A stretch of 64,000 nt of DNA, taken from the NCBI RefSeq assembly GCF_013315695.1, contig NZ_CP054353.1. One strand, given 5' to 3'. The stretch comes from Escherichia coli. GTDB lineage: Bacteria; Pseudomonadota; Gammaproteobacteria; Enterobacterales; Enterobacteriaceae. The position numbers and the translations under genes were made by a program. The notes under the pieces are model-generated. The model was given only the letters and a program-made list of their open reading frames with translations. It did not search any database and had not been told where the DNA came from. Shown here one piece after another: positions 38,088 to 47,310 of the stretch (the stretch's first letter is position 1; each line of letters starts with the position of its first letter).

Positions 38088-40883
<2,796 letters not shown>

Positions 40884-40994: not shown

Positions 40995-41762
40995 GTGTTT
41001 AATTCTGACAACCTGAGACTCGACGGAAAATGCGCCATCATCACAGGTGCGGGTGCAGGTATTGGTAAAGAAATTGCCATTACATTCGCGACAGCTGGCG
41101 CATCTGTGGTGGTCAGTGATATTAATGCCGATGCAGCTAATCATGTTGTAGACGAAATTCAACAACTGGGTGGTCAGGCATTTGCCTGCCGCTGCGATAT
41201 TACTTCCGAACAGGAACTCTCTGCACTGGCAGACTTTGCCGTCAGTAAGCTGGGTAAAGTTGATATCCTGGTTAACAACGCCGGTGGCGGTGGGCCTAAA
41301 CCGTTTGATATGCCAATGGCAGATTTTTGTCGCGCTTATGAACTGAATGTGTTTTCTTTTTTCCATCTGTCACAACTTGTTGCGCCAGAAATGGAAAAAA
41401 ATGGCGGTGGCGTTATTCTGACCATTACTTCTATGGCGGCAGAAAATAAAAATATAAACATGACCTCCTATGCCTCATCTAAAGCTGCGGCCAGTCATCT
41501 GGTCAGAAATATGGCGTTTGACCTGGGTGAAAAAAATATTCGGGTGAATGGCATTGCGCCGGGGGCAATATTAACCGATGCCCTGAAATCCGTTATTACA
41601 CCAGAAATTGAACAAAAAATGTTACAACACACGCCGATCAGACGTCTGGGCCAACCGCAAGATATTGCTAACGCGGCGCTGTTCCTTTGCTCGCCTGCAG
41701 CCAGCTGGGTAAGCGGACAAATTCTCACGGTCTCCGGTGGTGGGGTACAGGAGCTCAATTAA
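40995..41762 (+). CDS. hdhA: 7-alpha-hydroxysteroid dehydrogenase (SDR family)
   Basis: 255-aa ORF; TGAGAGIG cofactor motif, YxxxK catalytic motif (YASSKAAASHL). Confidence 0.93.
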   Translation: MFNSDNLRLDGKCAIITGAGAGIGKEIAITFATAGASVVVSDINADAANHVVDEIQQLGGQAFACRCDITSEQELSALADFAVSKLGKVDILVNNAGGGGPKPFDMPMADFCRAYELNVFSFFHLSQLVAPEMEKNGGGVILTITSMAAENKNINMTSYASSKAAASHLVRNMAFDLGEKNIRVNGIAPGAILTDALKSVITPEIEQKMLQHTPIRRLGQPQDIANAALFLCSPAASWVSGQILTVSGGGVQELN

Positions 41763-41855
41763 TACACTAACGGACCGGTAAACAGCCGTATGTGTTGTTT
41801 ACCGGGATAAACTCATCAACGTCTCAGCTAAATAACTGGCAGCCAAATTACGGCT

Positions 41856-41869
41856 ATTGGTTAACCAAT
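41856..41869. promoter_or_regulatory. Palindrome ATTGGTTAACCAAT upstream of uidR (candidate operator)
   Basis: Perfect 14-bp palindrome; a near-identical copy lies upstream of uidA (42903..42916). Confidence 0.4.
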
Positions 41870-41982
41870 TTCCGAGTGAAAAGTATACGAATAGAGTGTG
41901 CCTTCGCACTATTCAACAGCAATGATAGGCGCTCACCTGACAACGCGGTAAACTAGTTATTCACGCTAACTATAATGGTTTT

Positions 41983-42573
41983 ATGATGGATAACATGCAG
42001 ACTGAAGCACAACCGACACGGACCCGGATCCTCAATGCTGCCAGAGAGATTTTTTCAGAAAATGGATTTCACAGTGCCTCGATGAAAGCCATCTGTAAAT
42101 CTTGCGCCATTAGTCCCGGGACGCTCTATCACCATTTCATCTCCAAAGAAGCCCTGATTCAGGCGATTATCTTACAGGACCAGGAGAGGGCACTGGCCCG
42201 TTTCCGGGAACCGATTGAAGGGATTCATTTCGTTGACTATATGGTCGAGTCTATTGTCTCTCTCACCCATGAAGCCTTTGGGCAACGGGCGCTGGTGGTC
42301 GAAATTATGGCGGAAGGGATGCGCAACCCACAGGTCGCCGCCATGCTTAAAAATAAGCATATGACGATCACGGAATTTGTTGCCCAGCGGATGCGTGATG
42401 CCCAGCAAAAAGGCGAGATAAGCCCAGATATCAACACGGCAATGACTTCACGTTTACTGCTGGATCTGACCTACGGTGTACTGGCCGATATCGAAGCGGA
42501 AGATCTGGCGCGTGAAGCGTCGTTTGCTCAGGGATTACGCGCGATGATTGGCGGTATATTAACCGCATCCTGA
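41983..42573 (+). CDS. uidR: TetR-family repressor of the gus operon UidR
   Basis: 196-aa ORF with TetR HTH. Confidence 0.93.
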   Translation: MMDNMQTEAQPTRTRILNAAREIFSENGFHSASMKAICKSCAISPGTLYHHFISKEALIQAIILQDQERALARFREPIEGIHFVDYMVESIVSLTHEAFGQRALVVEIMAEGMRNPQVAAMLKNKHMTITEFVAQRMRDAQQKGEISPDINTAMTSRLLLDLTYGVLADIEAEDLAREASFAQGLRAMIGGILTAS

Positions 42574-42886
42574 TCCTCTCTCTCTTTCCGCGGGCTGGTG
42601 ACAACTGAGCCCGCGTTTCATATCGTAATTTCTCTGTGCAAAAATCATCCTCCCCGGGATCGGAGAATCCCACCTAAATATTCATCATAGCAATATATCA
42701 TGAGGGTTTATCGTTCCCAATATGTTCGAACGAACGTTCGATTGCTTATTTTGCGGCTTCTGTCAACGCTGTTTTAAAGATTAATGCGATCAATATCACG
42801 CTGTGGGTATTGCAGTTTTTGGTTTTTTGATCGCGGTGTCAGTTCTTTTTATTTCCATTTCTCTTCCGTGGGTTTCTCACAGATAA

Positions 42887-42916
42887 CTGTGTGCAACACA
42901 GAATTGGTTAACTAAT
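42887..42916. promoter_or_regulatory. Palindrome cluster in uidA promoter (candidate operator region)
   Basis: ctgtgt-gca-acacag inverted repeat followed directly by attggttaactaat; a separate cgaacgttcg palindrome sits at 42731..42740. Confidence 0.4.
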
Positions 42917-42962
42917 CAGATTAAAGGTTGACCAGTATTTTTATTTTAATGAGGAGTCCCTT

Positions 42963-45838
<2,876 letters not shown>

Positions 45839-45853
45839 GGTAATGACTCCAAC

Positions 45854-46357
45854 TTATTGATAGTGTTTTATGTTCAGATAATGCCCGATGACTTTGTCAT
45901 GCAGCTCCACCGATTTTGAGAACGACAGCGACTTCCGTCCCAGCCGTGCCAGGTGCTGCCTCAGATTCAGGTTATGCCGCTCAATTCGCTGCGTATATCG
46001 CTTGCTGATTACGTGCAGCTTTCCCTTCAGGCGGGATTCATACAGCGGCCAGCCATCCGTCATCCATATCACCACGTCAAAGGGTGACAGCAGGCTCATA
46101 AGACGCCCCAGCGTCGCCATAGTGCGTTCACCGAATACGTGCGCAACAACCGTCTTCCGGAGCCTGTCATACGCGTAAAACAGCCAGCGCTGGCGCGATT
46201 TAGCCCCGACATAGCCCCACTGTTCGTCCATTTCCGCGCAGACGATGACGTCACTGCCCGGCTGTATGCGCGAGGTTACCGACTGCGGCCTGAGTTTTTT
46301 AAGTGACGTAAAATCGTGTTGAGGCCAACGCCCATAATGCGGGCTGTTGCCCGGCAT
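45854..46357 (-). CDS. insB: IS1 transposase InsB
   Basis: 167-aa [61 protein letters not shown]... Confidence 0.95.
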
Positions 46358-46551
46358 CCAACGCCATTCATGGCCATATCAATGATTTTCTGGTGCGTAC
46401 CGGGTTGAGAAGCGGTGTAAGTGAACTGCAGTTGCCATGTTTTACGGCAGTGAGAGCAGAGATAGCGCTGATGTCCGGCGGTGCTTTTGCCGTTACGCAC
46501 CACCCCGTCAGTAGCTGAACAGGAGGGACAGCTGATAGAAACAGAAGCCAC
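46276..46551 (-). CDS. insA: IS1 InsA
   Basis: 91-aa [46 protein letters not shown]... Confidence 0.95.
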
Positions 46552-46606
46552 TGGAGCACCTCAAAAACACCATCATACACTAAATCAGTAAGTTGGCAGC
46601 ATCACC

Positions 46607-47310
46607 TTCGTGATGAAGGGGTGTATAACAGCCAGACGGGAAAATACGATAAACATCGCGCACGTTCTTTTTTAGCCGCCAGTTGGCATGATGATACCAG
46701 TCGCTATTCTCTGGGGGCATCGGTACAGAAAGATGTTTCCAATCAGTTACAAAGTATTCTCGAGAAAAGCATACCGCTCGACCCGAATTATACGTTGAAA
46801 GGGGAGTTGCTCGGCTTTTACGCGCAACTTGAAGGTTTAAGTCGTAATACCAGCCAGCCCAATGAAACGGCGTTAGTTAGTGGACAATTGACCTGGAATG
46901 CGCCGTGGGGAAGCGTATTTGGCAGTGGTGGTTATTTGCGCCATGCAATGAATGGTGCCGTGGTGGATACCGACATTGGCTATCCCTTTTCATTAAGTCT
47001 TGATCGTAACCGTGAAGGAATGCAGTCCTGGCAATTGGGCGTCAACTATCGTTTAACTCCGCAATTTACGCTGACATTTGCACCGATTGTGACCCGCGGC
47101 TATGAATCCAGTAAACGAGATGTGCGGATTGAAGGCGCGGGTATCTTAGGGGGTATGAACTATCGGGTCAGCGAAGGGCCGTTACAAGGGATGAATTTCT
47201 TTCTTGCTGCCGATAAAGGGCGGGAAAAGCGCGATGGCAGTGCGCTGGGCGATCGCCTGAATTACTGGGATGTGAAAATGAGTATTCAGTATGACTTTAT
47301 GCTGAAGTAA
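46607..47310 (+). pseudogene. uidC: Outer-membrane glucuronide porin uidC, 5'-truncated (C-terminal ~230 codons remain)
   Basis: 229-aa ORF starts immediately after IS1; beta-strand-rich sequence ending ...YDFMLK; position between uidB and ydgA. Confidence 0.7.

What the first reader, a model, noticed from the sequence alone, without database searches (positions are those of the whole stretch)
41856..42916. Shared palindrome ATTGGTTAAC(C/T)AAT in both the uidR and uidA promoter regions
The same 14-bp palindrome occurs upstream of uidR (41856..41869) and of uidA (42903..42916). The uidA copy abuts another inverted repeat ctgtgt-gca-acacag, and a separate cgaacgttcg palindrome is at 42731..42740. 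The GT...AC core of the shared motif looks more like a GntR-type (UxuR/ExuR) site than a TetR-type UidR site; I cannot assign it from sequence alone. These operators persist although the structural genes are dead.
Basis: partly seen in the sequence, partly recalled or inferred. Interest (0 to 1): 0.3.

Follow-up and report, generated by a model that had tools for sequence, protein, structure and literature searches.

The report
UxuR repressor boxes in gus promoters
The repeated 14-bp palindrome is real and is almost certainly the ordinary, already described binding box of the hexuronate repressor UxuR (GntR family) in front of the E. coli glucuronidase regulator and operon, so this is textbook regulation in a strain whose operon broke very recently.

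Summary
ATTGGTTAACCAAT lies at 41856-41869, upstream of uidR. ATTGGTTAACTAAT lies at 42903-42916, upstream of uidA.

- A matrix trained only on the four boxes of the K-12 uxu locus ranks the two sites 1st and 2nd of about 64,000 window positions.
- The tandem pair sits at the same distance from the gusA start codon in Escherichia, Enterobacter, Cedecea, Salmonella and Yersinia.
- The uidR box is an invariant island in variable DNA and has aligned counterparts in Enterobacter and Cedecea.

The separate CGAACGTTCG palindrome is the core of a different motif. That motif accompanies gusR in all seven genera sampled and lies inside the published GusR O1 deletion, so it is the likely UidR operator.

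The operon is dead: a 5-bp deletion in uidA and an IS1-linked deletion across uidB and uidC. The regulatory DNA is 99.9% identical to a strain with an intact operon, so survival of the operators means nothing.

This is known biology and of low interest. Direct binding was not tested.

The parts
41856..41869 (.). Box 1: perfect palindrome ATTGGTTAACCAAT upstream of uidR; inferred UxuR-type operator
   Evidence: Rank 1 of 63,983 positions with the uxu-trained matrix. TGGTT(A/G)ACCAAT is an invariant island between variable flanks in 9 Escherichia sequences. It aligns with ATTGGTTGATCAAA in E. hormaechei and ATTGGTTGACCAAA in Cedecea upstream of gusR.
42903..42916 (.). Box 2: ATTGGTTAACTAAT, the distal box of a tandem pair in the uidA leader/promoter; inferred UxuR-type operator
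   Evidence: Rank 2. A counterpart, ACTGGTTAACTTGT (TTTGGTTTACCTAA in Yersinia), is centred 53-62 nt before the gusA ATG in 5 genera.
42923..42936 (.).
   Evidence: Rank 5. Its counterparts (T/G)(T/C)TGGTTGACCAAT and ATTGGTTAACCAGT are centred 33-42 nt before the gusA ATG in 5 genera. It shares GGTTGACCAGT with the K-12 uxuR-upstream box, which also belongs to a 20-bp tandem.
42728..42744 (.).
   Evidence: Present next to gusR in all 7 genera sampled, including the two that lack GGT..ACC boxes. It is the only hit in the window to the 7-genus matrix: 30.3 bits, against 11.5 for the next unrelated hit. It lies inside the O1 deletion defined by primers DE6279 and DE6280 of PMC9881133.
42887..42901 (.). 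Inverted repeat CTGTGT-GCA-ACACAG abutting box 2; role unknown, spans the inferred uidA start site
   Evidence: Conserved in Escherichia with one change in E. whittamii. Absent at this position in Enterobacter, Cedecea, Salmonella and Yersinia. Broken in L008, which has lost uidA.
42859..42887 (+). Candidate uidA promoter TTCTCT-N17-GATAAC (inference)
   Evidence: TTCTCC/TTCTCT/TTTTCC-N16-17-GATAAC/GCTAAC, seen by eye, is conserved just upstream of the distal box in E. coli, E. hormaechei, Cedecea and Salmonella (sequences). In PMC9881133 Table S1, only guides covering 42859-42889 repress among the guides upstream of -28. The consensus scan did not call it.
41926..41954 (+). Candidate uidR promoter TAGGCG-N17-TAAACT (inference)
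   Evidence: TAGGCG-N17-TA(A/C)ACT aligns across Escherichia, E. hormaechei, Cedecea and Salmonella. It lies in a block that is almost invariant in Escherichia.
41983..42573 (+). uidR (gusR), intact TetR-family repressor gene, 196 aa
   Evidence: 100% identical to K-12 UidR.
42963..44769 (+). uidA pseudogene (5-bp deletion near 43370, frameshift)
   Evidence: Annotated 'frameshifted' in strain MSB1_4I, which is identical over 43300-46700.
44766..47310 (+). uidB 5' remnant (to about 45838), IS1A (about 45839-46606, transposase on the minus strand) and uidC 3' remnant (46606-47310)

Best explanation
The shared palindrome is the operator box of UxuR, the GntR-family (FadR-subfamily) repressor of glucuronate catabolism. 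Its paralogue ExuR may share the site.

Layout. There are three boxes, not two. One lies upstream of uidR (41856-41869). A tandem pair 20 bp apart, so on one face of the helix, lies between the inferred uidA promoter and the uidA start codon (42903-42916 and 42923-42936).

Inferred mechanism. Without fructuronate or glucuronate, UxuR dimers occupy the boxes. At uidA the tandem pair sits about +15 and +35 from the inferred start site and blocks RNA polymerase. UidR/GusR binds its own, unrelated operator (GAACGAACGTTCGATTG, 42728-42744) about 165 bp further upstream. Full induction then needs a glucuronide, which releases GusR, and its breakdown product, which releases UxuR. At uidR the box lies about 100 bp upstream of the inferred promoter, so the mode of action there is unclear.

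What is shown and what is inferred. Shown here: the sequences, their similarity to the uxu boxes, their conservation and their positions. Taken from papers: uidABC and uidR belong to the UxuR regulon. Inferred: occupancy, promoter positions and the blocking mechanism.

In this window the target operon is a fresh pseudogene cluster, so the circuit now controls only uidR.
For: 1. Motif form. TTGGT-NN-ACCAA matches the boxes in the K-12 gntP-uxuA spacer (AAATTGGTCAACCATTGT, GATGTGGTTAACCAATTT) and upstream of uxuR (TATTTGGTTGACCAGTTT). It also matches the UxuR operator AAATTGGTATACCAATTT that works in a synthetic promoter (PMC8092373).
2. Scoring. A matrix trained only on the four uxu-locus boxes ranks the uid boxes 1st, 2nd and 5th of 63,983 window positions. 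A matrix from exu/uxa-locus boxes ranks them 25th, 177th and 2609th.
3. Geometry. The same 20-bp tandem spacing occurs upstream of K-12 uxuR.
4. Conservation at gusA. The tandem pair is centred at -53 to -62 and -33 to -42 from the gusA ATG in Escherichia, Enterobacter, Cedecea, Salmonella and Yersinia, while the surrounding DNA has diverged.
5. Enrichment. In the non-Escherichia loci, 9 of 36 matches fall in the 4% of DNA that is gus regulatory (binomial p = 9e-6).
6. Conservation at uidR. Box 1 is an invariant island in variable DNA, and its only change falls in the degenerate centre. It aligns with boxes upstream of gusR in Enterobacter and Cedecea.
7. Literature. The UxuR regulon includes uidA, uidB, uidC and uidR, and uidABR is derepressed in a uxuR deletion and on glucuronate (PMC10016265). 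The RegulonDB list for UxuR includes uidABC (PMC5934670).
8. The UidR site is elsewhere.
Against:
- Genomic SELEX with purified UxuR alone gave a peak only at the gntP/uxuA spacer. The authors called UxuR a single-target factor (PMC5934670). Yet box 1 is a better palindrome than the uxuA boxes.
- Box 1 lies about 100 bp upstream of the inferred uidR promoter, an odd place for a simple repressor.
- The uxu training sites were picked by their match to the consensus, so the matrix test is partly circular.
- Both promoter positions are inferred, not mapped.
- The papers that define the uid operators (Blanco 1985, Little 2018, Rodionov 2000, Suvorova 2011) could not be read. The position of GusR O2 is therefore unknown to me.
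Confidence: 0.8

Rival explanations
1. The boxes are bound in vivo mainly by ExuR, or by a UxuR-ExuR heterodimer, and not by the UxuR homodimer. This is the same kind of site with a different occupant.
For: [quoted passage not shown] UxuR alone gave no SELEX peak at uid (PMC5934670).
Against: The uid boxes resemble the uxu-locus boxes (GGT-YR-ACC) far more than the best boxes of the exuR, uxaB and uxaC-exuT regions: ranks 1, 2, 5 against 25, 177, 2609. The exu-type matrix is poorly defined, because its sites were chosen by best match only.
Confidence: 0.25
2. The palindrome is an operator of UidR/GusR itself (for example the low-affinity O2), giving autoregulation of uidR and repression of uidA by one TetR-type protein.
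For: It occurs in front of both uidR and uidA, as expected for an autoregulated local repressor. The published O2 position could not be read. From memory, uidR is said to be autoregulated.
Against: - It has no similarity to the motif that accompanies gusR in all 7 genera.
- Buttiauxella and Mixta have gusR, gusABC and the O1-like motif but no GGT..ACC box.
- It lies outside the O1 deletion that abolished GusR control (PMC9881133).
- That paper draws O1 and O2 upstream of the gusA promoter, whereas boxes 2 and 3 lie downstream of the inferred promoter.
- The same box occurs at uxu genes, which UidR is not known to control.
Confidence: 0.05
3. Chance recurrence of an AT-rich palindrome built on the HpaI site GTTAAC, without function.
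For: Intergenic DNA is AT-rich, and short palindromes are common.
Against: 0 of 100 shuffles reach the observed count. Conservation at fixed positions across five genera. An invariant island in variable DNA. Enrichment p = 9e-6.
Confidence: 0.02

Closest known systems
UxuR operators of the E. coli K-12 gntP-uxuA spacer and uxuR promoter (GntR family, FadR subfamily; consensus AAATTGGTATACCAATTT)
   Same: The TTGGT-NN-ACCAA even palindrome. The 20-bp tandem arrangement, as upstream of uxuR. Location in front of genes of glucuronide and glucuronate use that respond to UxuR.
   Different: Box 1 is a more perfect palindrome than any uxu-locus box, yet no SELEX peak was reported there. Box 1 lies far upstream of the inferred uidR promoter.
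ExuR boxes of exuR, uxaB and uxaC-exuT
   Same: Paralogous regulator, similar length and palindromic form, same pathway.
   Different: The best exu-type boxes read GTGGTA-N-AACA and not TTGGT-YR-ACCAA. The uid boxes score poorly with a matrix built from them.
GusR/UidR operator O1 (TetR family; Little et al. 2018, as used in PMC9881133)
   Same: Same regulatory region, and the same target operon is repressed.
   Different: An unrelated sequence (GAACGAACGTTCGATTG, 42728-42744) about 165-180 bp upstream of the boxes. It is present in every genus that has gusR, whereas the GGT..ACC boxes are not.

Membership tests
UxuR/ExuR operator box (GntR family, FadR subfamily) | Even palindrome with TTGGT / ACCAA half-sites separated by 2 central bases | tested here: met
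   Mismatches to TTGGTNNACCAA: box 1 has 0, box 2 has 1, box 3 has 3. K-12 uxu-locus boxes have 1-2. With the uxu-trained matrix the boxes rank 1, 2 and 5 of 63,983.
UxuR/ExuR operator box (GntR family, FadR subfamily) | Lies in regulatory DNA of genes whose expression responds to UxuR | tested here: met
   Positions are 114 nt before the uidR ATG, and 47 and 27 nt before the uidA ATG. The response itself comes from papers: uidABR is derepressed in a uxuR deletion, and the regulon lists include uidABC and uidR (PMC10016265; PMC5934670).
UxuR/ExuR operator box (GntR family, FadR subfamily) | Conserved at orthologous positions in other genomes (phylogenetic footprint) | tested here: met
   Tandem pair at fixed distance from the gusA ATG in 5 genera. 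The gusR-upstream box aligns in Escherichia, Enterobacter and Cedecea. Invariant island within Escherichia. Enrichment p = 9e-6. Absent in Buttiauxella and Mixta.
UxuR/ExuR operator box (GntR family, FadR subfamily) | Direct, inducer-sensitive binding by the purified protein or in vivo occupancy | not testable with these tools
   Published genomic SELEX with UxuR alone reported only the gntP/uxuA spacer (PMC5934670). This is a caveat, not a test of these fragments.
UxuR/ExuR operator box (GntR family, FadR subfamily) | Assignment to UxuR as opposed to ExuR | tested here: inconclusive
   The uxu-type matrix fits much better than the exu-type matrix. However, the exu-type sites are weakly defined and the two proteins are reported to share targets (PMC9369180).
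UidR/GusR operator (TetR family) | Resembles the motif that co-occurs with gusR across genomes | tested here: not met
   The 7-genus matrix for GAACGAACGTTCGATTG hits only 42724-42747. Nothing at the palindromes or upstream of uidR scores above 4 bits.
UidR/GusR operator (TetR family) | Present wherever gusR-gusABC is present | tested here: not met
   Buttiauxella (L013) and Mixta (L014) have gusR, gusABC and the O1-like motif but no GGT..ACC box.
UidR/GusR operator (TetR family) | Lies within the experimentally defined operator region | tested here: not met
   The O1 deletion (primers DE6279 and DE6280) spans about 42619-42786 and excludes 42903-42936. The position of O2 could not be read because Little 2018 is not held.
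PdhR-type and other FadR-subfamily boxes with an odd centre (GGT-N3-ACC; feature recalled from memory) | 3-base centre between GGT and ACC | tested here: not met
   All three boxes read GGT-NN-ACC, that is GGTTAACC, GGTTAACT and GGTTGACC.

The most novel reading that the evidence does not exclude
The uid boxes are not simple UxuR-homodimer operators. UxuR alone gave no SELEX signal there. Box 1 sits about 100 bp upstream of the inferred uidR promoter. At uidA the tandem leader boxes lie about 165-180 bp from the GusR O1 site. Repression may therefore need a composite complex that closes a loop over the uidA promoter: either a UxuR-ExuR heteromer, or UxuR together with GusR bound at O1. That would be a repression loop between a GntR-family and a TetR-family repressor, and would give a physical basis to the 'cooperative regulation' inferred genetically in the 1980s.
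Probability: 0.15. Interest if true: 0.4.

Novelty: already known. Interest (0 to 1): 0.12.

Why it matters
It matters little beyond correct annotation. Dual control of beta-glucuronidase by UidR/GusR and UxuR has been known genetically since the 1970s and 1980s, and uidABC and uidR are listed in the UxuR regulon.

This check adds three things:
- A clean separation of the two operator types in the gus control region.
- The second, proximal UxuR-type box.
- Evidence that the tandem geometry is conserved across five enterobacterial genera.

This may help people who reuse the gusA control region as a glucuronide biosensor, as in PMC9881133. Such constructs carry UxuR-type boxes as well as the GusR operators, so they would respond to glucuronate and fructuronate status too.

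Tried and rejected
Papers not held:
- Little 2018, Suvorova 2011, Bates Utz 2004 and Blanco 1986 were not available.
- The statement that these exact sites are already annotated therefore rests partly on my memory of Blanco 1985, Rodionov 2000, Suvorova 2011 and RegulonDB.
- Full-text searches for the box sequences found only the UxuR biosensor paper.

Searches with thin results:
- The genome-contig scan with UidR returned only three Escherichia loci. Wider genera were reached through protein homologues and their contigs.
- One Salmonella contig (L011) was too short to use.

Rejected promoter ideas:
- TTGACC inside box 3 as the uidA -35. No -10 lies at a workable spacing, and this TTGACC is the conserved core of the proximal box.
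- The predicted 'constitutive' uidR promoter TTAACC-17-TATACG (PMC3946193), whose -35 would lie inside box 1. I did not adopt it because TATACG varies among E. coli strains and Escherichia species, whereas the downstream block is invariant.

Other negatives:
- The simple promoter scan gave nothing above shuffle expectation.
- No second O1-like site exists in the window.
- There is no Rfam match in 41700-43050.
- The uidR-uidA spacer is too invariant within Escherichia to give a footprint there.
- The CTGTGT..ACACAG repeat was considered as a CRP or UidR site. It has no convincing half-sites and is not conserved outside Escherichia.

Full report
**What is there.**
The window carries the E. coli hdhA-uidR-uidABC region. 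hdhA ends at 41762. uidR is 41983-42573. uidA starts at 42963.

- ATTGGTTAACCAAT, a perfect palindrome, at 41856-41869.
- ATTGGTTAACTAAT at 42903-42916.
- CTGTGT-GCA-ACACAG at 42887-42901.
- CGAACGTTCG at 42731-42740.

A search allowing two mismatches finds the 14-mer only at these two places in 64 kb. None of 100 shuffles reaches that count. The similarity between the two promoter regions ends after 15 bp. It is therefore a discrete site and not a duplicated segment.

**State of the genes.**
uidR is intact and 100% identical to K-12 UidR. uidA has a 5-bp deletion near 43370 and reads in two frames.

The alignment with K-12 stops at about 45838, where an IS1 begins. E. coli strain MSB1_4I is 100% identical over 43300-46700. 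RefSeq annotates it with uidA frameshifted, uidB lacking its C-terminus, an IS1A element, and uidC lacking its N-terminus.

The 1301-bp regulatory stretch (41700-43000) is 99.9% identical to strain MS 21-1, whose uidABC is intact and whose UidR protein has the same accession. The inactivation is therefore very recent. Survival of the operators needs no explanation.

By contrast, locus L008 has lost uidA altogether. There the remnant leader has begun to decay: ATTGGTTAACTGAT, AAAGGTTGACCTGT, and a broken hairpin. Its uidR and box 1 are intact.

**What the palindrome resembles.**
In K-12, the regions known to be under UxuR control carry boxes of the same form:
- gntP-uxuA spacer: AAATTGGTCAACCATTGT and GATGTGGTTAACCAATTT.
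- uxuR upstream: TATTTGGTTGACCAGTTT, preceded 20 bp earlier by CTGGTCAATCAA.

A UxuR operator quoted as AAATTGGTATACCAATTT confers UxuR-dependent, glucuronate-relieved repression on a synthetic promoter (PMC8092373).

It is AAAGGTTGACCAGT at 42923-42936, 20 bp centre to centre from the second. It shares GGTTGACCAGT with the uxuR-upstream box.

A symmetric matrix built only from the four uxu-locus boxes ranks the three uid boxes 1st, 2nd and 5th of 63,983 window positions. A matrix built from the best boxes of the exuR, uxaB and uxaC-exuT regions ranks them 25th, 177th and 2609th. The training sites were chosen by their match to the consensus, so this test is partly circular. They do come from independent loci.

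**Conservation.**
Within Escherichia (six E. coli strains, E. whittamii and two other lineages), TGGTT(A/G)ACCAAT upstream of uidR is an invariant island between variable flanks. Its only change falls in the degenerate central pair.

I reached other genera through UidR homologues of 50-66% identity and the contigs that encode them.
- In Enterobacter hormaechei, Cedecea colo, Salmonella enterica, Buttiauxella and Mixta, gusR and gusABC are divergent.
- In Yersinia they are co-directional, as in E. coli.

In Escherichia, Enterobacter, Cedecea, Salmonella and Yersinia a tandem pair of boxes lies at nearly the same distance from the gusA ATG. The centres are at -53 to -62 and -33 to -42, with a spacing of 20-22 bp. 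The surrounding sequence has diverged.

Enterobacter and Cedecea also carry a box upstream of gusR that aligns with box 1. Escherichia has an extra 37 nt between the box and a conserved TAGGCG-N17-TA(A/C)ACT element.

In the non-Escherichia loci, 9 of 36 matches to the pattern lie in the 4% of DNA that is gus regulatory (p = 9e-6). Buttiauxella and Mixta have no box.

**The other palindromes.**
CGAACGTTCG is the core of GAACGAACGTTCGATTG (42728-42744). This motif or a close variant lies between gusR and gusA in all seven genera, including the two without GGT..ACC boxes. It sits about 235-246 nt before the gusA ATG in E. coli, Salmonella and Yersinia.

A matrix from the seven genera hits the window once: 30.3 bits, against 11.5 for the next unrelated hit. 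Nothing upstream of uidR scores.

[quoted passage not shown] The deletion primers remove about 42619-42786. That span contains this motif and excludes the shared palindrome. This motif is therefore the likely UidR/GusR operator.

The CTGTGT..ACACAG repeat is confined to Escherichia. I cannot assign it a role.

**How it most likely works.**
Papers place uidA, uidB, uidC and uidR in the UxuR regulon. They report uidABR derepressed on glucuronate and in a uxuR deletion (PMC10016265; PMC5934670).

I infer that UxuR dimers occupy the three boxes when fructuronate or glucuronate is absent.

A conserved TTCTC(C/T)-N16-17-GATAAC element just upstream of the distal box is my candidate uidA promoter (42859-42887). 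It agrees with CRISPRi data, in which guides covering 42859-42889 repress while neighbouring upstream guides do not. On that reading the tandem boxes lie at about +15 and +35, and O1 lies about 165 bp upstream of the start site.

Induction would then need both a glucuronide, which releases GusR, and its product, which releases UxuR.

At uidR the box lies about 100 bp upstream of the inferred promoter (41926-41954), so the mode of action there is unclear.

**Caveats.**
- No binding could be tested here.
- Genomic SELEX with UxuR alone reported only the gntP/uxuA spacer (PMC5934670). This leaves room for ExuR, a heterodimer, or cooperation with GusR.
- The promoters are inferred, not mapped.
- The primary operator papers were not available.

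**Verdict.**
The biology is established: dual UidR and UxuR control of the gus operon. I rate it as already known and of low interest.

Noticed in passing
The same 20-bp tandem geometry occurs upstream of K-12 uxuR (L002 6387 and 6407) and in front of gusA in four other genera.
   Followed up: yes
window 42728-42744: GAACGAACGTTCGATTG is conserved next to gusR in seven genera and occurs once in the window. It is the likely GusR O1 operator. No similar site lies upstream of uidR, although uidR is said (from memory) to be autoregulated.
   Followed up: yes
window 41895-41985: An almost invariant block in nine Escherichia sequences upstream of uidR. It includes a 37-nt Escherichia-specific insertion with the small palindrome GTGC-CTTC-GCAC (41898-41909). 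It also has a perfect TATAAT (41971-41976) only 6 nt before the ATG, which would give a leaderless uidR mRNA if used. Function unknown.
   Followed up: partly
window 39327-39340: ATTGGTCAACCAGA inside the malX coding region ranks 3rd in the window with the uxu-trained matrix. It is also present in K-12 and E. whittamii. Probably kept by coding constraint, and not examined as a site.
   Followed up: no
window 43370 and 45838-46606: A 5-bp deletion frameshifts uidA. An IS1A element replaces the 3' end of uidB and the 5' end of uidC. The same lesions are annotated in E. coli MSB1_4I (NZ_LR898874.1), which carries IS1 at the reporting limit of 40 matching places per record.
   Followed up: yes
L007 and L008 (Escherichia sp. 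MOD1-EC7003; E. coli SCPM-O-B-8794): Both keep uidR and box 1 but have no uidA within 4 kb downstream. L008 retains a decaying uidA leader with substitutions in both boxes and in the hairpin.
   Followed up: partly
K-12 loci L002-L005 versus PMC8092373: The paper says its UxuR site AAATTGGTATACCAATTT comes from the uxuR promoter. That exact 18-mer is absent from the K-12 uxu, exu, uxaB and lgo regions fetched, so it looks like a consensus sequence.
   Followed up: partly
window 42590-42614: A 7-bp GC-rich hairpin (GCGGGCT...AGCCCGC) lies just after the uidR stop codon and is followed by GTTTC. It may be a uidR terminator that separates the uidR and uidA transcription units. The terminator scan did not call it.
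   Followed up: no
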